From the IMG/VR virus record IMGVR_UViG_2537561691_000009: a stretch of 49,442 bases of DNA, one strand, 5' to 3'. The DNA comes from a virus (Duplodnaviria > Heunggongvirae > Uroviricota > Caudoviricetes). Positions 4,632 through 47,680 of this stretch are shown piece by piece. The position numbers were made by a program, and so were the translations under genes. The notes under the pieces were generated by a model, which saw nothing but the letters and a program-made list of their open reading frames with translations, ran no database searches and was not told the origin of the DNA. Each line of letters opens with the position of its first letter. The stretch's first letter is position 1.

Positions 4632-4888
4632 TGTTTTTGGTTTTAACTGTTCCGCGTGCGCTCAGCCGCATTCACCACATCACAAAATTCACTTTAAAAA
4701 GGGCGGCAGAGCAGTCACGGAGTAAAACTGATACCGCCAAACGTCACCAGAAAATTGATAACAGAGGGCGTTGCAGCGGAGTTGTCACTTAAGCGTATGG
4801 TCAACCTGACAACCCGGTGTCCTCAACGGAGGAAGAAATAACCCCGCCATACTTACCGCCGCGCCATTTCGCGGAGTGCCACAACCGG

Positions 4889-9415: not shown

Positions 9416-9584
9416 TTTTGGTTCAACTAAATACAACGTCAGTTTTGAAGAATGGCATGAACTGTTAATGGACTATGCAGAGTTACGTGGTGGCAGTGCT
9501 GCTGATGCTGAAGCATGGCGGGATGATTATGAAGCAGGAAAAACTCCGGTCGAAGCATATTGTGATGAGTGGGGCGATGAATGA
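9408..9584 (+). CDS. Small acidic protein, 58 aa (MADFGSTKYNVSFEEWHELLMDYAELRGG...)
   Basis: Hand-translated, below track threshold; translationally coupled to flanking ORFs via ATGA-type overlaps. Confidence 0.45.
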   Translation: MADFGSTKYNVSFEEWHELLMDYAELRGGSAADAEAWRDDYEAGKTPVEAYCDEWGDE

Positions 9585-9838
9585 GCGAGGTTAATTATCA
9601 GGAAGGGCATGAAACGGCGGGGCAAGCAAAAACAGTGGCATGGCGATATCGCTACGTGAAAAAAAAGGCGTTACGGACTTTCAGGGGAAGTAGTGGTCTG
9701 GTGACTGGAAATATGTACCGAAAAAAGAGGATTGTAACGACAGGCCGAACTATGAAATTCAGGCCTTATTCACTGCCCCGCCAGTCCCGGTTACATCAGA
9801 AGAACTGGTTAAAGCTGTGCACTTTTATGAACAACTAA
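9581..9838 (+). CDS. Hypothetical basic protein
   Basis: 85-aa ORF with start overlapping the previous stop. Confidence 0.35.
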   Translation: MSEVNYQEGHETAGQAKTVAWRYRYVKKKALRTFRGSSGLVTGNMYRKKRIVTTGRTMKFRPYSLPRQSRLHQKNWLKLCTFMNN

Positions 9839-10067
9839 AACGCGAAAATCCACCAGCATCCGGAAACCTGATTACAGATTCCCAGATAAGGCAATGAGCT
9901 ACCTGGCGCAGAACGGGCTGATAAGTATGGGGAATGTTTTACGATGAATATTTAGACTAAAGAGTTTGTAACGCTATGTAAGTGATTTTTTCTGGTTTAG
10001 ATATTTATATATCCGGCCAAATTGAGGTGTGTTTAAATGTAATTGCACATTGATTGTAGGAGGAATA

Positions 10068-10247
10068 ATGAAAAACGCATTGCAGTTTTTGTTTGTTGCG
10101 TTCTGGTTGTTCGTATCATGTATGCCCATCATCTTCACAGCAAGGTATATGGAAAAAGTTGATGTTTTGATATTAATATTTGGATATATAAATGCCCTTT
10201 TTTTAGGGGTGTTCATGGCGGTCATGTGCATTGAATACTGGCGGTAA
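10068..10247 (+). CDS. Small hydrophobic membrane protein, 59 aa, two predicted TM segments
   Basis: Strong SD (taggagga) 5 nt upstream of ATG; hydrophobic sequence; AT-rich upstream region. Confidence 0.5.
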   Translation: MKNALQFLFVAFWLFVSCMPIIFTARYMEKVDVLILIFGYINALFLGVFMAVMCIEYWR

Positions 10248-10379
10248 ATACAGCGAACGCCATTGGTTTAGTTGGATATTTACTGTGCCGGACAAAAACG
10301 GTTTGCGGGGAAATCTTAGTTAAGTAGAATGACTGCGGGTGCTTGAGGCTATCTGTCTCAGGCATGAACACCAAAAGGC

Positions 10380-10460
10380 AGATAGAGAAAAGCCCCAGTT
10401 AACATTACGCGTCCTGCAAGACGCTTAACATTAATCTGAGGCCATATCTATGCTCTACAC
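10380..10460 (-). ncRNA. sok: Putative Sok-like antisense RNA region (approximate)
   Basis: Inferred from hok/sok locus architecture (antisense RNA overlapping mok start); boundaries not determinable from sequence alone. Confidence 0.3.
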
Positions 10461-10662
10461 ACGTAGGTTAGCCTCTTACGTGCCGAAAGGCAAGGAGAAG
10501 CAGGCTATGAAGCAGCAAAAGGCGATGCTAATCGCCCTGATCGTCATCTGTTTAACCGTCATAGTGACGGCACTGGTAACGAGGAAAGACCTCTGCGAGG
10601 TACGAATCCGAACCGGCCAGACGGAGGTCGCTGTCTTCACAGCTTACGAACCTGAGGAGTAA
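10450..10662 (+). CDS. mok: Mok (modulator of killing) overlapping reading frame
   Basis: 70-aa ORF in frame with and extending upstream of hok. Confidence 0.55.
   Translation: MLYTRRLASYVPKGKEKQAMKQQKAMLIALIVICLTVIVTALVTRKDLCEVRIRTGQTEVAVFTAYEPEE
10507..10662 (+). CDS. hok: Hok/Gef family type I toxin, 51 aa
   Basis: MKQQKAMLIALIVICLTVIVTALVTRKDLCEVRIRTGQTEVAVFTAYEPEE has Hok-family TM helix and conserved C-terminal motif; 5' leader resembles hok mRNA leaders. Confidence 0.85.
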   Translation: MKQQKAMLIALIVICLTVIVTALVTRKDLCEVRIRTGQTEVAVFTAYEPEE

Positions 10663-10730
10663 GAGACCAGGCGGGGGAGAATCCCTCGCCACCTCTGATG
10701 TGTCAGGCATCCTCAACGCACCCGCACTTA

Positions 10731-10756
10731 ACCCGCTTCGGCGGGTTTTGTTTTTT
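10731..10756 (+). terminator. Rho-independent terminator after hok (cccgc-ttcg-gcggg + T-run)
   Basis: GC hairpin followed by ttttgtttttt. Confidence 0.55.
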
Positions 10757-10828
10757 CCTGGCATTCTGGTTTACAATTCGCACGTCAGCCTGAACACCTG
10801 ACACCTGCTGCGCCAGCAGAGAAAACAG

Positions 10829-11101
10829 ATGGCGCACAAAACCAAATTTCACAATTCTGATACCGACCTTGCCATCCGGCATGAGCGGCGTTCACACGCA
10901 TTTAAAACCGACTGGTACCAACACCCACCATGTACTGAAGAACAGGCCGAATGGCTGATTCATAACTACCGCAGACGTGGATATGAGTTTAGGAAAGCCC
11001 TCACCCTCGATTATCGTCACTGGATAATCTACGTCAGACTCCCTTATTCCGAACGCCCACCGCGTCCGTCCCGCACATTCCAGCAACGGATCTGGAGGTA
11101 A
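10829..11101 (+). CDS. Hypothetical protein
   Basis: 90-aa ORF upstream of DUF968-like gene. Confidence 0.45.
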   Translation: MAHKTKFHNSDTDLAIRHERRSHAFKTDWYQHPPCTEEQAEWLIHNYRRRGYEFRKALTLDYRHWIIYVRLPYSERPPRPSRTFQQRIWR

Positions 11102-16623: not shown

Positions 16624-16699
16624 GGCCCTTTAGCTCAGTGGTGAGAGCGAGCGACTCATAATCGCCAGGTCGCTGGTTCAAATCCAGCAAGGGCCACCA
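16624..16699 (+). tRNA. tRNA with CAU anticodon (Ile2/ileZ-like, or Met)
   Basis: Cloverleaf parsed by hand: acceptor ggccctt/aagggcc, anticodon loop ctCATaa, T-loop ttcaaat, 3' CCA. Confidence 0.8.
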
Positions 16700-16706
16700 T
16701 CACATA

Positions 16707-16783
16707 CCGCCATTAGCTCATCAGGAAAGAGCGCCAGCCTTCGAAGCTGGTTGCGCGGGGTTCAAGTCCCCGATGGCGGTCCA
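16707..16783 (+). tRNA. tRNA-Arg (anticodon UCG)
   Basis: Acceptor ccgccat/atggcgg, anticodon loop ctTCGaa, T-loop ttcaagt, 3' CCA. Confidence 0.8.
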
Positions 16784-16796
16784 TTATCTGCATCAT

Positions 16797-16873
16797 GCGT
16801 TGTTAGCTCAGCCGGACAGAGCAATTGCCTTCTAAGCAATCGGTCACTGGTTCGAATCCAGTACAACGCGCCA
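16797..16873 (+). tRNA. tRNA-Arg (anticodon UCU)
   Basis: Acceptor gcgttgt/acaacgc, anticodon stem attgc/gcaat, loop ctTCTaa, T-loop ttcgaat, 3' CCA. Confidence 0.8.
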
Positions 16874-17111
16874 CACTTATTTTCCCTGGCTCGCTTTTGT
16901 GGGCCTTTTTTTTAAATGTCTCACAATTTAGGCGGTTGACTGTTGTCTGGTTTGCGGGGAGTTTGTTAAAAGAAACTGGCATGGTGAATCCCCCTGTGCG
17001 GAGGGGCAATCAGCGAGTAGGTATATGGGATAATCGCGGATTCAGGTGCTGGTACTGAATTCACCGGGAGGCACCCGGCACCATGCAATGGCACATAGCG
17101 CCACTCTCCAG

Positions 17112-17133
17112 CCCCTCTCCGGAGGGGCTGTTT
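17112..17133 (+). terminator. Possible terminator hairpin (cccctc-tccg-gagggg + T-rich tail)
   Basis: GC stem-loop followed by ctgtttat. Confidence 0.35.
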
Positions 17134-17164
17134 ATATTGATTTTGTCAGATGTGAGTAAACTGC

Positions 17165-42415: not shown

Positions 42416-45322
42416 ATGACAGTAAAAATTTCTGGCGTGCTTAAAGATGGCACAGGAAAACCAGTACAGAACTGCACCATTGTGCTGAAGGCCAGACGAA
42501 CCAGCAGCACGGTGGTGGTGAACACGGTGGCCTCTGAAAATCCGGATGAAGCCGGACGTTACAGCATGGATGTTGAGCATGGTCAGTACAGCGTCACCCT
42601 GCTGGTTGAAGGTTTTCCGCCTTCACATGCCGGGACCATTACCGTCTATGAAGGTTCCAGACCAGGTACGCTGAATGATTTTCTCGGTGCCATGACGGAG
42701 GATGATGTCCGACCGGAGGCACTGCGCCGCTTTGAGCAGATGGTGGAAGAGGTGTCACGTAACGCCTCCGCGGTTGCACAGAATACGGCAGCCGCGAAAA
42801 AATCAGCCAGCGATGCCAGTGCATCAGCCAGCGAGGCGGCAACTCATGCAACCGATGCTGCAGCCTCAGCACGTGCCGCCAGCACGTCAGCCGGACAGGC
42901 CGCGTCGTCGGCTCAGTCAGCGTCTTCCAGCGCAGGAACGGCATCGACAAAGGCCCGTGAAGCAGCAAAAAGTGCTGCTGCTGCAGAGTCATCAAAAAGC
43001 GCGGCAGCTACCAGCGCCAGTGCCGCGAAAACGTCAGAAACGAATGCCGCAGCATCACAAAAATCGGCAGCCACTTCTGCATCCACAGCGACCACGAAGG
43101 CGTCAGAAGCTGCCACCTCGGCACGGGGTGCGGCGGCCTCAAAAGAGGCAGCGAAATCATCAGAAACGAACGCATCATCAAGCGCCAGTAGTGCCGCTTC
43201 CTCGGCAACGGCGGCAGGCAATTCCGCGAAGGCGGCAAAGACGTCTGAGACAAACGCCAGGTCTTCTGAAACGGCAGCGGGACAGAGCGCCTCGGCTGCG
43301 GCAGGCTCAAAAACAGCGGCTGCGTCGTCTGCCAGTGCCGCGTCAACAAGTGCCGGGCAGGCCTCAGCCAGTGCCACCGCCGCCGGAAAATCGGCAGAAA
43401 GCGCCGCATCATCCGCTTCAACAGCCACAACGAAGGCTGGCAAAGCCACTGAGCAAGCCACTGCAGCAGCGAGGTCTGCTTCTGCAGCAAAAACCTCTGA
43501 AACAAATGCAAAGACTTCAGCAGACAATGCTGCTTCCTCTAAGGCGGCAGCCGCATCGTCAGCCAGTTCAGCGGCGTCATCGGCATCATCTGCGTCTGCT
43601 TCAAAAGATGAGGCGACCAGACAAGCGTCAGCAGCGAAAGGTAGTGCCACGACAGCAACAATGAAAGCATCAGAGGCAGCTGGTAGTGTGACGGCGGCAG
43701 CTCAGAGCAAAAGTACGGCGGAATCCGCGGCAACGCGCGCCGAGACAGCAGCAAAACGGGCAGAGGATATTGCATCCGCCGTGGCGCTGGAGGATGCGAG
43801 CACGACGAAAAAGGGGATAGTACAGCTCAGCAGTGCGACCAACAGCACTTCCGAGTCACTGGCGGCAACGCCAAAAGCGGTTAAGGCGGTAATGGGTGAA
43901 ACGAACAAGAAAGCGCCCTTAAATAGTCCTGCACTGACCGGAACGCCAACAACACCAACTGCGCGACAGGGAACGAATAATACCCAAATCGCAAGCACGG
44001 CTTATGTTATGGCTGCGATCGCTGCCCTCGTGGACTCGTCGCCTGACGCACTGAATACGCTGAACGAGCTGGCTGCGGCGTTGGGCAACGACCCGAATTT
44101 TGCGACCACCATGACTAACGCGCTTGCGGGTAAGCAACCGAAAGATGCCACCCTGACGGCGCTGGCCGGGCTTGCTACTGCGGCAGACAGGTTTCCGTAT
44201 TTTACGGGGAATGATGTTGCCAGTCTGGCAACCCTGACAAAAGTTGGGCGGGATATTCTTGCGAAATCGACCGTTGCCGCCGTTATCGAATACCTCGGTT
44301 TACAGGAAACGGTAAACAAGGCTGGTAACGCCGTTCAGCGTTCCGGCGATAAAATGACCGGAGAACTGAAAATTGGCACGGTGAATGCGCTGCGAATTTT
44401 CAATGATGCCTTCGGTCTTATTTTCCGTCGTTCAGAAGATTTTCTTCATTTCATTCCGACGGCTGAAGGACAAGGCGAAAACGGTGATATAGGCCCATTA
44501 AGGCCATTCGCTATAAATCTGAGAACAGGTGCTATATCTGTCAGCCACGGGGCCAAAATTGATGGTGGGCTGGCGCTTGGTACAGATAACGCACTGGGCG
44601 GTAATTCCATTACTCTCGGAGATAACGACACTGGTATTAAACAGGGCGGCGACGGTGTCCTTTTATTCTATTCAAATGGACAACTGGCATTTGGACTTCA
44701 ACCCGCATCTGCTGATTTTTATAAGCGGGTTGCATATATTCATCAGGGAATAATTCCTGATGGAAGTGGCGCATTTGCAGACCAGTTGAATAATGCCACC
44801 GCGCCTTTTGTTCAGACGCAGTTTGCCTGGAATCCCACTCCTGGTGGTCATTACGTGCCGATAGTTAAGGGCTTGTCCATTCGCAATGGACAGGGCTATC
44901 CCGGCGCGGTCAGCTTTGGGTATTTACTGACAGAACAGTATGGATTTCCGGTTCCATGTATTCATATGCGTGGCGATGGCGGTAATGATGCTTTATGGCA
45001 GTTTAACCCGAACGATAAATCCTTTATTTCACCGGGTGCTCTTATTGCGGGTGGCGTCCGTTATAACACCGATGGAAATATATTTGGTGGGTGCTGGGGT
45101 TCAAACTTAAATGATTACCTGAATAGTTCTTTTATCAGAAATGTGCGTCTGGGAGGCAGACGTTCTGACACATTATATCGCGGAGGACTTTGCGAACCAG
45201 GTAATGGTCATGTGACAACAGGATTGCAAATTATTGGTGAGGTTGATGGAGATGACTGGATGGTGTCACGACCACTACAAAAATACATTTCTGGTAACTG
45301 GTATAACGTTGAACAGGCATAG
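42416..45322 (+). CDS. stf: Side tail fibre protein Stf (constant N-terminal part, Ala/Ser-rich repeat region, variable C-terminus inside invertible segment)
   Basis: 968 aa; long A/S/T-rich low-complexity core; gix-like crossover site inside at 44283..44310. Confidence 0.88.
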   Translation: MTVKISGVLKDGTGKPVQNCTIVLKARRTSSTVVVNTVASENPDEAGRYSMDVEHGQYSVTLLVEGFPPSHAGTITVYEGSRPGTLNDFLGAMTEDDVRPEALRRFEQMVEEVSRNASAVAQNTAAAKKSASDASASASEAATHATDAAASARAASTSAGQAASSAQSASSSAGTASTKAREAAKSAAAAESSKSAAATSASAAKTSETNAAASQKSAATSASTATTKASEAATSARGAAASKEAAKSSETNASSSASSAASSATAAGNSAKAAKTSETNARSSETAAGQSASAAAGSKTAAASSASAASTSAGQASASATAAGKSAESAASSASTATTKAGKATEQATAAARSASAAKTSETNAKTSADNAASSKAAAASSASSAASSASSASASKDEATRQASAAKGSATTATMKASEAAGSVTAAAQSKSTAESAATRAETAAKRAEDIASAVALEDASTTKKGIVQLSSATNSTSESLAATPKAVKAVMGETNKKAPLNSPALTGTPTTPTARQGTNNTQIASTAYVMAAIAALVDSSPDALNTLNELAAALGNDPNFATTMTNALAGKQPKDATLTALAGLATAADRFPYFTGNDVASLATLTKVGRDILAKSTVAAVIEYLGLQETVNKAGNAVQRSGDKMTGELKIGTVNALRIFNDAFGLIFRRSEDFLHFIPTAEGQGENGDIGPLRPFAINLRTGAISVSHGAKIDGGLALGTDNALGGNSITLGDNDTGIKQGGDGVLLFYSNGQLAFGLQPASADFYKRVAYIHQGIIPDGSGAFADQLNNATAPFVQTQFAWNPTPGGHYVPIVKGLSIRNGQGYPGAVSFGYLLTEQYGFPVPCIHMRGDGGNDALWQFNPNDKSFISPGALIAGGVRYNTDGNIFGGCWGSNLNDYLNSSFIRNVRLGGRRSDTLYRGGLCEPGNGHVTTGLQIIGEVDGDDWMVSRPLQKYISGNWYNVEQA
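44283..44310. promoter_or_regulatory. Left crossover site (gix/hix-like) of invertible tail-fibre segment
   Basis: ttatcgaatacctcggtttacaggaaac; inverted copy at 47364..47389 (22 of 26 positions match). Confidence 0.7.
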
Positions 45323-45337
45323 CCATCAGGAGAATAT

Positions 45338-45865
45338 ATGCAACATCTGAAAAATATTACCGCCGGAAACCCCAAAACCATTGAGCAGTATCAGCTTACG
45401 AAAAAAGCTGGCGTTATCTGGCTATATACAGAAGACGGTAAAAACTGGTATGACGAATTAAAAAACTTTCAGGATGATACTTTAAAAATAGCTTATGACC
45501 AGAAGGGGATTATTCGTTGTATTGAGAAAGACGTATCAACACTTAACCCTGACGGGTTAAGTGTTGTTGAGTTACCGAATATAACAGCCAACCGTCGCGC
45601 CGATATCTCGGGAAACTGGAAGTTTCTGGATGGTAAAGTAGTAAAGCGGGAATATACAAAACAGGAACTGCAACAGCAGGCAGAGTTACAAAAAGCCGCT
45701 TTGCTTTCCGAAGCGGAGTCTGTGATTCAACCGCTGGAACGTGCTGTCAGACTGAATATGGCAACTGATGAGGAACGCACACGACTGGAATCATGGGAAC
45801 GCTACAGCGTTATGGTCAGCCGTGTGGATACTGCAAAGCCTGAATGGCCACAGAAACCAGAATAA
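45338..45865 (+). CDS. tfa: Tail fibre assembly protein Tfa
   Basis: 175 aa directly after stf. Confidence 0.85.
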
Positions 45866-45874
45866 CAACAAATT

Positions 45875-45894
45875 AAGGCCCGTACGGGCCTTTT
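45875..45894. terminator. Bidirectional terminator hairpin between convergent tfa genes
   Basis: aaggcccgtacgggcctttt. Confidence 0.6.
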
Positions 45895-45895
45895 C

Positions 45896-46429
45896 TTATT
45901 CTGGTGGTTCCGGGAATGTTACAGGAAGAACCGAGGTATCAGTTGTCTCAACCTGTTGCACGTATCGCATCCAGTTCATCAGTTGCTGTCTGTCTGAATC
46001 AGTGATAATCCCCAAAGTAAGCTGTGTTTGCCAGAACTGCGTTTTTTCTCTGGCCTGCTGTAATAATATTTTTTTCTGGTTTTCCGTCTGTAGGCGCAAC
46101 TCTTCTTCGGTATATACACGTTTAATGACTGCGCCATCTTTAAACATCCATTTACCTGAGTCGTCAGCACGCCGGTTGGCGGTAATATCAGGAATCTCAA
46201 CGACGCTATAACCTTCAGGGTTAAGTGTGGAGGCATCTTTGGTTATGGCAACAATAATATTATTTTCATCGTAAACAATCTTTATGGTGTCTGGCTGAAA
46301 GTTTTTCACTTCCTCATACCAGTTTTTTTCGTCCTCAGAGTAAAGCCAGATAACTCCGTGTTTCTTTGTTAACTCATACTGTTCCAGTGTTTTAGCATTA
46401 CCCGCTTTTATGTTCTTTAAGTGCATCAT
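45896..46429 (-). CDS. Alternative tail fibre assembly protein Tfa'
   Basis: 177-aa ORF resembling tfa at 45338..45865 in reading and layout, inverse orientation. Confidence 0.8.
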
Positions 46430-46430
46430 A

Positions 46431-47381
46431 TTAAACGCTCGCTACATTATACCAGGTGCCATTTATATACTTTTGAACGGGTCTGTAATAAACGCCCGCT
46501 ATATTATCGGCAGAGTTAGACCCTGTATCCTGAACATTAATACCAGACAATACATGACCTGAAGGGCACCGGAAATACCATGTTTGCCAGTTGTTCACTC
46601 CATAATATTGCTGTGAACCAAGTCGAACATCTTTCACATAACGGGAATCAAAGTTACCGTAATCCGAGGGGTTAACACGCCCTGTAATATTTATGGTTTT
46701 ATTACTTTGAATGCTTCCGGAGACAAAGCGCATAACATGGACGTTATTAGCATAAACATCCAGATTACCATCGCCATTTTGTTTAAAGCCCGTGTCATTA
46801 TCACCCAATACAATCGAATTACCGCCAAGAGCACTGGATGTTCCGATACCCAGTGTACCATTCAGTTGACCACCAGATAACGGCAGTGCACCAACATCTC
46901 CTGCTGAAGGTTTTCTGGTGGTGGTGTAAAATTCGGACCAGTCGGCTTCAAAACCATAACCATCACGGGCTGAACGATAAAAAACACCGCCATTTTTATA
47001 ATTAATCCGAAACTGAGCTGCAGGACAACTTCCTTCTCCCATATAAAAATGAATAATTAACGTTGATGCACCACTAATAGTTGCGTTATAGGCTCCGCTA
47101 CTCCAGTTCCATCCAACTGCTTTATCATTCGCAACGGTGCTTCCTGTTTTCCCTAAGGCAAACGCACCAACATGACTTGCTTTTAATGTGATATCGGAGG
47201 AACCATCAAAAGCCACATTGCTTATTTTCCTGGCAGTTTTTAATTTTGCAGCTGTAGAAGCATTGCCGGATAGTTCACCAGAAAGGCCACCGCTGAATGT
47301 TTGTCGATTAGTCCAGGTATTCGCTGTACTGAGTAACGGTATTTTCTCCCCGCTTGTGCCGAGTTCTCGTAAACCGAGGTT
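46431..47381 (-). CDS. Alternative Stf C-terminal segment (no independent start; joined to stf constant part upon inversion)
   Basis: Minus-strand frame open from the right crossover site to 46431; shares LGGNSI.LGDNDTG.KQ and RP.QKYI.G.WYNV motifs with the stf C-terminus. Confidence 0.75.
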
Positions 47382-47389
47382 TTAGATAA
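47364..47389. promoter_or_regulatory. Right crossover site (gix/hix-like, inverted)
   Basis: ttctcgtaaaccgaggttttagataa, inverted copy of the site at 44283..44310. Confidence 0.7.
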
Positions 47390-47443
47390 TGGCGGTTTCT
47401 GGCCTGTATGGCATGATTTGTGCTTTTGGACGGGAGATTCAGC

Positions 47444-47680
47444 GTGCTGATTGGCTATGTAAGGGTATCAACAAATGACCAGAATACAGATCTGCAACGA
47501 AACGCTCTTGTTTGTGCAGGATATGAACAAATATTTGAAGATAAATTAAGCGGAACAAGGACAGGCCGACCTGGATTAAAACGTGCTTTAAAGCGCCTTC
47601 AAAAAGGTGACGCACTGGTTGTCTGAAAACTGGACTGACTGGTTCACTGTATGCGGCATCTTGTCGTGCTGGTGGTGGAA
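47444..47680 (+). pseudogene. pin: Decayed Pin/Gin/Hin-family serine DNA invertase (nonsense codons and 3' truncation)
   Basis: N-terminus MLIGYVRVSTNDQNTDLQRNALVCAG... is invertase-like but an in-frame TGA follows GDALVV, a second stop follows in the KLD...L.VHCMRHL remnant, and the gene ends at a tfa 3' repeat. Confidence 0.75.

What the first reader, a model, noticed from the sequence alone, without database searches (positions are those of the whole stretch)
10260..10760. hok/mok/sok-type type I toxin-antitoxin locus inside the prophage
Seen in sequence: a 51-aa Hok/Gef-family toxin ORF (10507..10662) with an overlapping upstream mok frame (from 10450), a leader resembling hok mRNA leaders (gcttgaggct...), and a terminator (10731..10756). 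Established knowledge: hok/sok loci stabilise replicons and can exclude phages such as T4. The antisense Sok RNA is inferred from the architecture, not directly identified.
Basis: partly seen in the sequence, partly recalled or inferred. Interest (0 to 1): 0.45.

Follow-up and report, generated by a model that had tools for sequence, protein, structure and literature searches.

The report
Intact hokD-type hok/mok/sok toxin-antitoxin cassette
This is an ordinary, already well-described small "host-killing" toxin gene kept silent by an antisense RNA. It sits intact inside a lambda-like prophage of E. coli, and near-identical copies occur in most E. coli genomes.

Summary
Window 10303..10756 holds a complete hok/mok/sok type I toxin-antitoxin cassette.

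- **Toxin:** the 51-aa Hok ORF (10507..10662) matches Pfam HOK_GEF at 1.2e-23. It is 51/51 identical to E. coli K-12 HokD (RelF) and 48/51 identical to HokW of phage 933W/Sp5.
- **mok:** the ORF starts at 10450. Here it is in frame with hok, not frame-shifted as in plasmid R1.
- **Leader:** it matches Rfam RF01794 at 117 bits.
- **mRNA switch:** the full-length mRNA is predicted to pair its 5' end (tac, 10337-10348) with fbi (10711-10723). The mok Shine-Dalgarno is then sequestered by ucb.
- **Sok:** By homology to annotated sokW it is 10458->10388 on the minus strand. This promoter is base-for-base identical to the sokW promoter whose -10 was mutated experimentally.

The K-12 hokD copy is truncated upstream of 10493, whereas this copy is intact. 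The host element is a complete lambdoid prophage integrated at ompW.

The one mildly new point is a 22-nt hypervariable patch (10443-10464) covering Sok's 5' recognition tail, with 23 alleles in 120 phage loci.

Verdict: already known; low interest.

The parts
10303..10330 (+). Putative hok/mok mRNA promoter: -35 TTGCGG (10303-10308), 16-nt spacer, -10 TAGAAT (10325-10330). The transcription start would be about 10337.
   Evidence: Read from the sequence. It places +1 at the first base of the Rfam leader match. It is too weak for the consensus scan, which requires at least 4 of 6 matches in each hexamer. The -10 is conserved in 933W and phage Rac 442/2. Inferred, not shown.
10337..10756 (+). 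Predicted full-length hok mRNA (mok-hok bicistron), from the tac 5' end to the intrinsic terminator.
   Evidence: Rfam RF01794 covers 10337-10512. The terminator is at 10730-10756. Fold energy is -169.6 kcal/mol with z = -5.97 against shuffles.
10337..10348 (+). tac (translational activator element), GGGUGCUUGAGG. It has three alternative partners: fbi (10711-10723), ucb (10390-10396) and a local metastable hairpin (10356-10365).
   Evidence: Pair tables of the predicted folds. The Rfam consensus pairs it with AAGCCCC.
10390..10398 (+). ucb (anti-Shine-Dalgarno box), AAGCCCCAG. It pairs with the mok SD in the full-length fold and with tac in the Rfam (active-type) structure.
10436..10442 (+). 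mok Shine-Dalgarno region, CUGAGGC (GAGG at 10439-10442).
   Evidence: Invariant in 120 related loci, where it served as the search anchor. Sequestered by ucb in the full-length fold. R1 has the same GAGG mok SD (PMC9841398).
10450..10662 (+). mok ORF, 70 aa, in frame with hok (an N-terminally extended Hok).
   Evidence: Equivalent to the annotated mokW of 933W. The distance between the two ATGs is 57 nt here, compared with 58 in the R1-type locus. Across relatives it is 56, 57 or 58.
10443..10464 (.). Hypervariable patch. It comprises the SD-to-ATG spacer, mok codons 2-5 (which together encode the 5' single-stranded tail of Sok), and 6 nt between the Sok -10 and +1.
   Evidence: Nucleotide diversity is 0.32-0.35, against 0.071 at hok third codon positions and 0.056 in the leader. 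There are 23 alleles in 120 IMG/VR loci.
10472..10476 (+). dcb (downstream complementary box), GCCUC. It pairs with GAGGC of the mok SD to form the Sok-target hairpin.
   Evidence: Rfam consensus structure. The hairpin is predicted in every allele, at -9.6 to -15.5 kcal/mol. 91% of cells are paired, against 27-62% in slid controls, with no double compensatory change.
10388..10458 (-). Sok antisense RNA, about 71 nt. It has a 5' tail of about 15 nt, a long hairpin, and a 3' end of GGGGCUUUUCUC.
   Evidence: Placed by alignment to the annotated sokW of 933W (L001 1594-1664). Fold energy is -29.8 kcal/mol, z = -5.08. The sokW RNA was detected by Northern blot in Sp5 lysogens (PMC8621323). Its expression in this strain has not been tested.
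10465..10493 (-). Sok promoter: -35 TTGCCT (10493..10488), 17-nt spacer, -10 TAACCT (10470..10465).
   Evidence: Read from the sequence. Identical to 933W across this stretch. Primer YO-421 of PMC8621323 replaces exactly this -10 in the 'pro-less' mutant that lost antitoxin activity. The R1-type locus has TTGCCT-17-TATCCT at the same place. The consensus scan did not report it because the -10 matches only 3 of 6.
10493..10497 (+). hok Shine-Dalgarno, AGGAG, 9 nt upstream of the hok ATG. It overlaps the Sok -35 on the other strand.
   Evidence: Sequence. Homology with K-12 hokD begins exactly here.
10507..10662 (+). hok toxin gene (HokD allele), 51 aa.
   Evidence: Pfam HOK_GEF 1.2e-23. PHROG 251. 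51/51 identical to K-12 HokD and 48/51 to HokW.
10645..10648 (+). UACG motif at Tyr47 (codon UAC followed by G). It is a candidate TadA A-to-I editing site that would recode Tyr47 to Cys.
   Evidence: Sequence. The K-12 hokD mRNA, identical across this stretch, is reported about 6% edited (PMC12214031). Pseudocitrobacter Hok carries a DNA-encoded Cys at this position. Inferred for this locus.
10670..10690 (+). GC-rich hairpin (GGCGGGGGA-GAA-UCCCUCGCC). It is the predicted protective 3' hairpin of the processed (truncated) hok mRNA.
   Evidence: Present in all predicted folds. The equivalent R1 hairpin is needed for stability of the truncated mRNA (PMC9841398). The exact processing site has not been determined.
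10711..10723 (+). fbi (fold-back inhibitory element), CCUCAACGCACCC. It is complementary to tac with one bulged C.
   Evidence: Compared with the R1-type pair GGCGCUU/AAGCGCC, both sides have changed.
10730..10756 (+). Intrinsic terminator of the hok transcript: stem-loop 10730-10747 followed by UUUUGUUUUUU.

Best explanation
Window 10303..10756 is an intact hokD-type hok/mok/sok type I toxin-antitoxin cassette. It lies in the early-right (nin-like) region of a complete lambdoid prophage integrated at ompW.

Mechanism, by homology with plasmid R1 hok/sok and phage Sp5/933W hokW-sokW:
1. A weak promoter makes a stable, roughly 420-nt mok-hok mRNA.
2. The mRNA's 5' end (tac) pairs with fbi near its 3' end. 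The ucb box then sequesters the mok Shine-Dalgarno, so the full-length mRNA is neither translated nor bound by Sok.
3. Slow 3' trimming back to the GC-rich hairpin (10670-10690) removes fbi. tac then re-pairs with ucb, and the mok SD moves into the SD/dcb hairpin.
4. That form is either bound by Sok and destroyed, or translated. Sok is a roughly 71-nt unstable antisense RNA (10458->10388, promoter 10493..10465), and destruction of the duplex is partly RNase III-dependent.
5. Translation of mok is needed for hok translation. Here mok is in frame with hok, so ribosomes starting at mok would make a 70-aa extended Hok directly.
6. Hok inserts in the inner membrane and collapses the membrane potential.

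What is shown here: the sequence features, the family matches and the predicted full-length fold. What is inferred: the transcripts, the processing, the toxicity in this strain and the biological role.

The most likely role is that toxin is released when Sok synthesis stops. That could happen on prophage induction, helping lysis and phage release as shown for hokW-sokW. It could also happen on transcription shut-off by a superinfecting phage, or after loss of the prophage.

The confidence given is for the identity and mechanism of the cassette, not for any one biological role.
For: - **Toxin:** Pfam HOK_GEF 1.2e-23; PHROG 251 2.8e-33; 51/51 identity to K-12 HokD and 48/51 to HokW.
- **Leader RNA:** Rfam RF01794 at 117 bits, E=4e-26, full model length.
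- **Full-length fold:** tac 10337-48 pairs with fbi 10711-23, and ucb 10392-98 pairs with the mok SD 10436-42. This holds whether the mRNA ends at 10756 or 10729, with z = -5.97.
- **Sok:** placed by alignment to annotated sokW. It folds into a 5' tail plus long hairpin plus U-rich end, z = -5.08.
- **Sok promoter:** identical to that of sokW. The sokW -10 was mutated with loss of antitoxin function, and its RNA was detected by Northern blot (PMC8621323).
- **Same promoter architecture in an R1-type locus**.
- **Intact cassette:** it is not interrupted, and it is 92.5% identical to hokW/mokW/sokW over 440 nt.
- **K-12 comparison:** the K-12 copy shares only 10493-10755, so the window carries the regulatory half that K-12 lacks.
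- **Prophage context:**
- **Reported experiments on relatives:** HokW toxicity, SokW antitoxicity and a two-fold effect on Sp5 release (PMC8621323). HokD is listed among control sequences previously shown to be toxic (bioRxiv 10.1101/2025.08.07.668861).
Against: - No expression data exist for this strain.
- Both promoters are weak matches to the sigma-70 consensus, and the generic scan missed them.
- MFE prediction of the processed mRNA is ambiguous. Ending at 10700 gives tac-ucb, while ending at 10696 keeps ucb on the mok SD.
- The related-locus sets gave no double compensatory changes for the SD/dcb hairpin.
[quoted passage not shown] Activity of a chromosomal or prophage copy therefore cannot be assumed.
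- NCBIfam Hok models score below their cut-offs (48.5 against 73). Pfam is well above its own.
Confidence: 0.9

Rival explanations
1. The cassette is a silent evolutionary relic. It looks intact, but like the K-12 chromosomal hok loci it never produces toxin and has no role for the prophage or the host.
For: [quoted passage not shown] Other hok loci are reported inactivated by IS elements or rearrangements (PMC12214031). K-12 hokD itself is a truncated relic. Both promoters deviate from consensus.
Against: - Here every regulatory element is present and uninterrupted.
- In 120 related phage loci the leader, Sok promoter and CDS are under strong conservation: diversity 0.04-0.07, against 0.32-0.35 in the patch and much higher still in the flanks.
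- The 92.5%-identical hokW-sokW is experimentally active (PMC8621323).
Confidence: 0.12
2. The cassette's main role is post-segregational stabilisation of the prophage, killing cells that lose or excise it, exactly as hok/sok stabilises plasmid R1.
For: The mechanism and architecture are the same as in R1. The 933W record annotates hokW/mokW as 'prophage maintenance'.
Against: - This has not been tested for any prophage hok.
- In Sp5, deleting hokW-sokW did not affect growth under normal conditions. The measured phenotype appeared on induction, as earlier growth arrest and two-fold more released phage.
- A curing event is rare, and the cassette leaves with the excised phage DNA.
Confidence: 0.25
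3. The cassette's main role is abortive-infection defence. A superinfecting lytic phage shuts off host transcription, unstable Sok decays, and Hok kills the cell before the invader completes its cycle.
For: R1 hok/sok on a high-copy plasmid reduced T4 efficiency of plating by 42% and plaque size by about 85% (Pecota and Wood 1996, as cited in PMC8621323 and PMC10305079). hok genes are about four-fold enriched in prophages.
Against: - The effect was shown only for a high-copy R1 construct.
- hok is not enriched next to known defence systems.
- There are no data for hokD-type cassettes.
Confidence: 0.25

Closest known systems
hokW-mokW-sokW of Stx2 phage 933W / Sakai prophage Sp5 (AF125520; Takada et al. 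2021, PMC8621323)
   Same: - 92.5% nucleotide identity over 440 nt, and toxin 48/51 identical.
- mok is in frame with hok, 70 aa.
- The tac sequence, Sok promoter (-35, spacer, -10) and Sok hairpin body are identical apart from one loop base.
- Both are carried by a lambdoid prophage.
   Different: - The Sok 5' tail and mok codons 2-5 differ: CCATATCTATGCTCTACACACG here against CTCAATCCATGCTGAACACATG. The two Sok RNAs may therefore not cross-protect.
- The HokW C-terminus is VDYESEK instead of TAYEPEE.
- The position in the phage genome differs. 933W carries the cassette near one end of the genome, after the tail genes. Here it lies between the replication genes and DUF968/RusA/Q.
- 933W lacks the terminator sequence found at 10730-10756.
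hokD (relF) of E. coli K-12 cryptic prophage Qin
   Same: - The toxin is 51/51 identical.
- 98% nucleotide identity from the hok SD (10493) to the terminator (10755).
- The neighbourhood type is the same: hokD is followed by a DUF968 gene (ydfU) and a Q-like antiterminator (ydfT).
   Different: In K-12, everything upstream of 10493 is replaced by relBE: the hok promoter, tac, ucb, the mok start, the Sok gene and the Sok -10. The window carries the complete regulated form.
hok/mok/sok (parB) of plasmid R1 and IncF relatives, the paradigm system
   Same: - Same order of elements: tac, ucb, mok SD, mok ATG, dcb, the Sok -10 and -35 overlapping the hok SD, hok, a GC-rich 3' hairpin, fbi and the terminator.
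- The Rfam leader family is shared, as is the Pfam toxin family.
- tac and fbi remain complementary, with changes on both sides relative to R1.
   Different: - Only about 80% nucleotide identity, over a 74-nt core. HokW is reported 44% identical to R1 Hok.
- In the R1 type, mok is 58 nt upstream and out of frame. Here it is 57 nt upstream and in frame.
- The replicon is a prophage, not a plasmid.

Membership tests
Hok/Gef toxin family (Pfam PF01848) | A roughly 50-aa protein matching the HOK_GEF profile above its gathering score. | tested here: met
   82.9 bits against a cut-off of 22, E=1.2e-23, covering profile positions 1-42 of 42. PHROG 251 E=2.8e-33.
Hok/Gef toxin family (Pfam PF01848) | An N-terminal hydrophobic transmembrane helix, followed by a polar C-terminal part with the conserved Cys. 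| tested here: met
   Read from the sequence: residues 6-25 are AMLIALIVICLTVIVTALVT, followed by RKDLCEVR with Cys30. 51/51 identical to K-12 HokD.
Hok/Gef toxin family (Pfam PF01848) | Toxic to the cell when expressed. | not testable with these tools
   The identical protein HokD is listed among control sequences previously shown to be toxic. HokW (48/51 identical) arrested growth when induced.
hok/mok/sok type I toxin-antitoxin locus | A hok mRNA leader with the family's conserved sequence and secondary structure. | tested here: met
   Rfam RF01794 at 117.1 bits against a gathering score of 59, model positions 1-157 of 157, at 10337-10512 on the + strand. The Rfam family is named 'sok' but is modelled on the hok-leader strand; its last positions are the hok AUG.
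hok/mok/sok type I toxin-antitoxin locus | An overlapping upstream mok reading frame with its own SD, starting about 57-58 nt before hok. | tested here: met
   ATG at 10450 with GAGG at 10439-42; a 70-aa ORF. The ATG is invariant across 23 flanking-sequence alleles. The frame relative to hok is not conserved (56, 57 or 58 nt). This fits the R1 finding that translation of mok, not its product, is what matters.
hok/mok/sok type I toxin-antitoxin locus | Long-range tac-fbi pairing of the mRNA 5' and 3' ends, with ucb sequestering the mok SD in the full-length mRNA. | tested here: met
   Predicted in the MFE and centroid structures: 12 pairs between 10337-48 and 10711-23, and ucb 10392-98 paired with 10436-42. 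This is a prediction only; no structure probing exists.
hok/mok/sok type I toxin-antitoxin locus | A switch to the tac-ucb and SD-dcb conformation after 3' processing. | tested here: inconclusive
   The sequence fits that conformation, which is the Rfam consensus. It is the MFE for a 3' end at 10700 but not at 10696. The processing site is unknown.
hok/mok/sok type I toxin-antitoxin locus | A short antisense Sok RNA with its own promoter, complementary to the mok translation-initiation region. | tested here: met
   The promoter TTGCCT-17-TAACCT at 10493..10465 is identical to the functionally tested sokW promoter. The RNA is 10458->10388 by homology and folds as a tail plus hairpin. Transcription in this strain has not been tested.
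hok/mok/sok type I toxin-antitoxin locus | Sok represses Hok production; removing Sok is lethal or growth-arresting. | not testable with these tools
   Shown for hokW-sokW and for R1 hok/Sok in the chromosome, but not for this allele.

The most novel reading that the evidence does not exclude
Sok's 5' recognition tail, and the mok start region it targets (10443-10464), may be under diversifying selection. Under this reading the many near-identical hokD-type cassettes carried by co-resident lambdoid prophages have mutually orthogonal antitoxins. Each prophage would then be 'addictive' or inducible on its own, much like incompatibility groups set by plasmid antisense RNAs.

The evidence so far is a five-fold excess of diversity over hok third codon positions, and 23 alleles in 120 loci around an invariant mok ATG, mok SD and Sok promoter. 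I did not find this described in the papers I searched, but the search was limited.
Probability: 0.4. Interest if true: 0.4.

Novelty: already known. Interest (0 to 1): 0.12.

Why it matters
Little is new for the locus itself. hok/sok is the textbook type I toxin-antitoxin system, and hokD is annotated in most E. coli genomes. A 92.5%-identical prophage copy, hokW-sokW, has been tested experimentally.

The practical value is in annotation:
- The window carries the complete regulated form of hokD, including mok and Sok. Standard pipelines annotate neither of these.
- K-12 has only the truncated form.

The allele series in Sok's 5' tail could be used to test whether prophage-borne hok/sok copies are insulated from each other.

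Tried and rejected
- **Generic promoter scan.** It found neither the hok nor the Sok promoter, only a + strand hit at 10425-10454 that I regard as chance. Both promoters were placed by hand and by homology.
- **NCBIfam.** Only sub-threshold Hok models matched (48.5 against 73 bits; HokA 40.2 against 89), so no HokD-specific HMM assignment was possible. Identity to K-12 HokD was shown directly instead.
- **Covariation test of the SD/dcb target hairpin on 18 alleles.** Pairing is kept at 91%, against 27-62% in slid controls. There were no double compensatory changes, and the shuffle control was uninformative. It gives no independent covariation support.
- **Folding of the processed mRNA.** The result depends on the assumed 3' end, so it cannot confirm the activation switch.
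- **Co-resident copies.** I asked whether copies in one genome avoid sharing a patch allele. 10 of 11 co-resident pairs differ, but about 89% would differ by chance at the observed allele frequencies. The test is not discriminating.
- **The 72-aa hydrophobic ORF upstream (10029-10247).** It has no Pfam, PHROG or NCBIfam match, and its only tblastn hits are near-identical copies in three phage records. Whether it codes cannot be judged.
- **A chance ORF or degenerate relic.** I considered and rejected this for the cassette itself.
Full report
**Observation**

- A 51-aa ORF runs 10507..10662, and a 70-aa ORF runs from ATG 10450 to the same stop.
- The string gcttgaggct is at 10341-10350.
- A terminator-like hairpin at 10730-10747 is followed by a T-run to 10756.
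- The short ORF matches Pfam HOK_GEF at E=1.2e-23, 82.9 bits against a cut-off of 22. It also matches PHROG 251 'MokW-like host killing' at 2.8e-33.
- The leader 10337-10512 matches Rfam RF01794 over the whole model at 117 bits, E=4e-26.

That Rfam family is called 'sok', but the match is on the + strand and ends at the hok AUG. It therefore models the hok-mRNA leader to which Sok is complementary. None of this is chance.

**How common it is**

The 601-nt region around the locus matches 4956 of 5426 complete E. coli genomes. The median is two places per genome and the maximum is ten. The best matches are 99.7% identical and annotated hokD. It also matches 102 phage records, among them 933W, where hokW, mokW and sokW are annotated.

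**Context**

The window is 99.8% identical and collinear over its first 43 kb with a region of E. coli EC24. That region is annotated as follows:
- ompW, integrase, excisionase, exonuclease, dicB
- a RacR-type repressor, Cro-like and YdaT genes, replication genes
- hokD
- a PHROG-1212 gene, DUF968, RusA, a DUF1133 Q-like gene
- three tRNAs, then holin, lysozyme, terminase, head and tail genes

The element is therefore a complete lambdoid prophage. The cassette lies in the early-right operon and has the same orientation as that operon.

**Anatomy**

| Element | Coordinates | Basis |
|---|---|---|
| hok promoter, TTGCGG-16-TAGAAT | 10303-10330 (+) | By eye; puts +1 at 10337, the first base of the Rfam match |
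| tac | 10337-10348 (+) | Pairs with fbi in the full-length fold |
| ucb | 10392-10398 (+) | Pairs with the mok SD in the full-length fold |
| mok SD | 10436-10442 (+) | Sequestered by ucb |
| fbi | 10711-10723 (+) | 12 pairs with tac and one bulged C |
| Sok RNA | 10458->10388 (-) | Alignment to annotated sokW |
| Sok promoter, TTGCCT-17-TAACCT | 10493..10465 (-) | Sequence and homology |

- The full-length fold gives the same tac-fbi and ucb-SD pairings whether the RNA ends at the terminator or just after fbi. This is the inactive conformation described for R1 (PMC9841398).
- The Rfam consensus, which the sequence fits, is the other conformation. In it tac pairs with AAGCCCC (10390-96), and GAGGC (10439-43) pairs with GCCUC (10472-76, dcb).
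- A third partner of tac, a local hairpin with 10356-65, appears in some folds. It corresponds to the metastable nascent structure described for R1.
- Which fold the processed RNA adopts could not be settled, because the MFE depends on the assumed 3' end.
- A 9-bp GC-rich hairpin at 10670-10690 corresponds to the hairpin that protects the truncated R1 mRNA.

**Sok**

- Aligning the window with 933W transfers the annotated sokW to 10458->10388 on the minus strand.
- Upstream of it on that strand lies TTGCCT (10493..10488), then 17 nt, then TAACCT (10470..10465).
- This 29-nt stretch is identical in 933W.
- Primer YO-421 of Takada et al. changes exactly this -10 in the 'promoter-less' construct that lost antitoxin activity. 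Their probe YO-592 detected the RNA on Northern blots (PMC8621323).
- An R1-type locus has TTGCCT-17-TATCCT at the same place.
- The predicted Sok folds into an unpaired 5' tail of about 15 nt, a long hairpin and a U-rich 3' end, at -29.8 kcal/mol and z = -5.08.

**Relation to known copies**

The toxin is 51/51 identical to K-12 HokD and 48/51 to HokW. K-12 hokD shares only 10493-10755 with the window. Upstream of that point K-12 has relE and relB. The K-12 copy therefore lacks the hok promoter, tac, ucb, the mok start, Sok and most of Sok's promoter. The window has the complete form.

Against the R1 type, one difference stands out: the mok ATG is 57 nt before the hok ATG, so mok is in frame. 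In the R1 type the distance is 58 nt.
- Among 120 related phage loci, 98 could be measured. The distance is 57 in 81, 56 in 11 and 58 in 6.
- In Kluyvera, Pseudocitrobacter and other genera it is mostly 58.
- The frame is thus not conserved while the ATG is. This fits the R1 result that translation of mok, not its product, is required.

**Function**

Reported experiments on relatives:
- For hokW-sokW, HokW arrests growth and SokW counteracts it, partly through RNase III and Hfq.
- SokW disappears and HokW appears on RecA-dependent prophage induction.
- Deleting the locus delays growth arrest and halves phage release (PMC8621323).
- R1 hok/sok stabilises plasmids, and on a high-copy plasmid it partly excludes T4.
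- Several chromosomal hok loci, in contrast, were reported inactive in killing assays.

I therefore take the mechanism as very likely and the biological role as open. Toxin release on loss of Sok synthesis is the common denominator.

**A side result**

I collected 80 IMG/VR loci encoding the identical toxin, and 120 loci by a pattern anchored on the mok SD, the mok ATG and dcb.
- The homologous block ends at about 10300-10320 on the left and 10750 on the right. The flanks differ between phages.
- Inside the block the conserved parts have low nucleotide diversity: leader 0.056, Sok promoter 0.041, hok third codon positions 0.071.
- A 22-nt patch at 10443-10464 reaches 0.32-0.35, with 23 alleles.
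- Seven loci differ from the window at 6 of 395 other positions but at 6-10 of the 20 patch positions; binomial P was about 1e-5 to 1e-6 for the three tested.
- The patch is the SD-ATG spacer plus mok codons 2-5, which together encode the first 16 nt of Sok, plus the 6 nt between Sok's -10 and +1.
- Every allele keeps a predicted SD/dcb hairpin. There are no double compensatory changes.

From established knowledge, Sok recognises its target through its single-stranded 5' end. The pattern would therefore fit selection for distinct antitoxin specificities among co-resident cassettes. Relaxed constraint on a region whose two partners are complementary by construction is the alternative.

Copies within one genome mostly carry different alleles, in 10 of 11 pairs. 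That is about what random assortment would give. I did not find this described in the papers searched. Lack of cross-talk between R1 Sok and the K-12 loci is reported.

**Verdict**

The finding is real and correctly interpreted, and it is already known. Interest is low. The allele series in Sok's tail is the only part that might repay further work.

Noticed in passing
window 10443-10464: Hypervariable patch inside an otherwise near-invariant cassette. It has 23 alleles in 120 IMG/VR loci. Nucleotide diversity is 0.32-0.35, against 0.04-0.07 in the leader, Sok promoter and hok third codon positions. It covers Sok's 5' tail and mok codons 2-5, while the mok ATG and SD stay invariant.
   Followed up: partly
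window 10645-10648: Codon Tyr47 (UAC) followed by G forms the UACG motif used by TadA. K-12 hokD mRNA, identical across this stretch, is reported about 6% A-to-I edited to Cys at this position (PMC12214031). A Pseudocitrobacter homologue encodes Cys there in its DNA (L222).
   Followed up: partly
window 10450 vs 10507; L003, L004, L008: mok is in frame with hok here (57 nt), giving a 70-aa extended Hok. Relatives have 56 or 58 nt, which is out of frame, through 1-2 nt indels around AAAGG(T)CAAGG and just after the mok ATG.
   Followed up: yes
window 9900-10293: An AT-rich segment (33-38% GC) with no gene annotated in the matching E. coli EC24 RefSeq record lies directly upstream of the cassette. 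It holds a 72-aa strongly hydrophobic ORF (10029-10247, GTG start). The ORF has no Pfam, PHROG or NCBIfam match and was found only in near-identical phage records, where it is annotated 'hornerin' or hypothetical.
   Followed up: partly
window 9581-9897: Two overlapping ORFs (9581-9838 and 9817-9897) correspond to a gene annotated as frameshifted with an internal stop in the matching E. coli EC24 record.
   Followed up: no
window 4701-4752 (-): DicF antisense sRNA, Rfam RF00039 at 76.7 bits, lying between the ydfC and dicB homologues of the prophage immunity region.
   Followed up: no
window 16624-17139 (+): Three prophage tRNA genes at 16624-16870, annotated Ile, Arg and Arg in EC24. They are followed by a full-length match to the sRNA STnc100 (RF02076, 132 bits) at 16950-17139.
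   Followed up: no
window 10703-10882 (-): A 59-aa ORF antisense to the hok terminator and to the start of the next gene. RefSeq annotates it as a hypothetical protein (WP_001112736.1), but it is probably not a gene.
   Followed up: no
window 43174-47675: The window diverges from the otherwise collinear E. coli EC24 prophage in the tail-fibre end of the element. Identity is 99.8% up to 43173, then resumes at 47676, with only a 90%-identical 350-nt piece in between.
   Followed up: no
L213, L214, L220, L225 (genome contigs): Exact hokD-type cassette fragments occur on short contigs assigned to Collinsella, Xanthomonas pisi, 'Scatousia' and Haemophilus assemblies. These are most likely E. coli or phage contamination of those assemblies.
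   Followed up: no
window 10434-10441 vs 10693-10700: AUCUGAGG (the mok SD region) is complementary, with one mismatch, to CCUCUGAU just 3' of the protective hairpin. In one truncated-mRNA fold the two pair. The 3' segment is invariant in 933W and phage Rac 442/2. Its significance is unknown.
   Followed up: no
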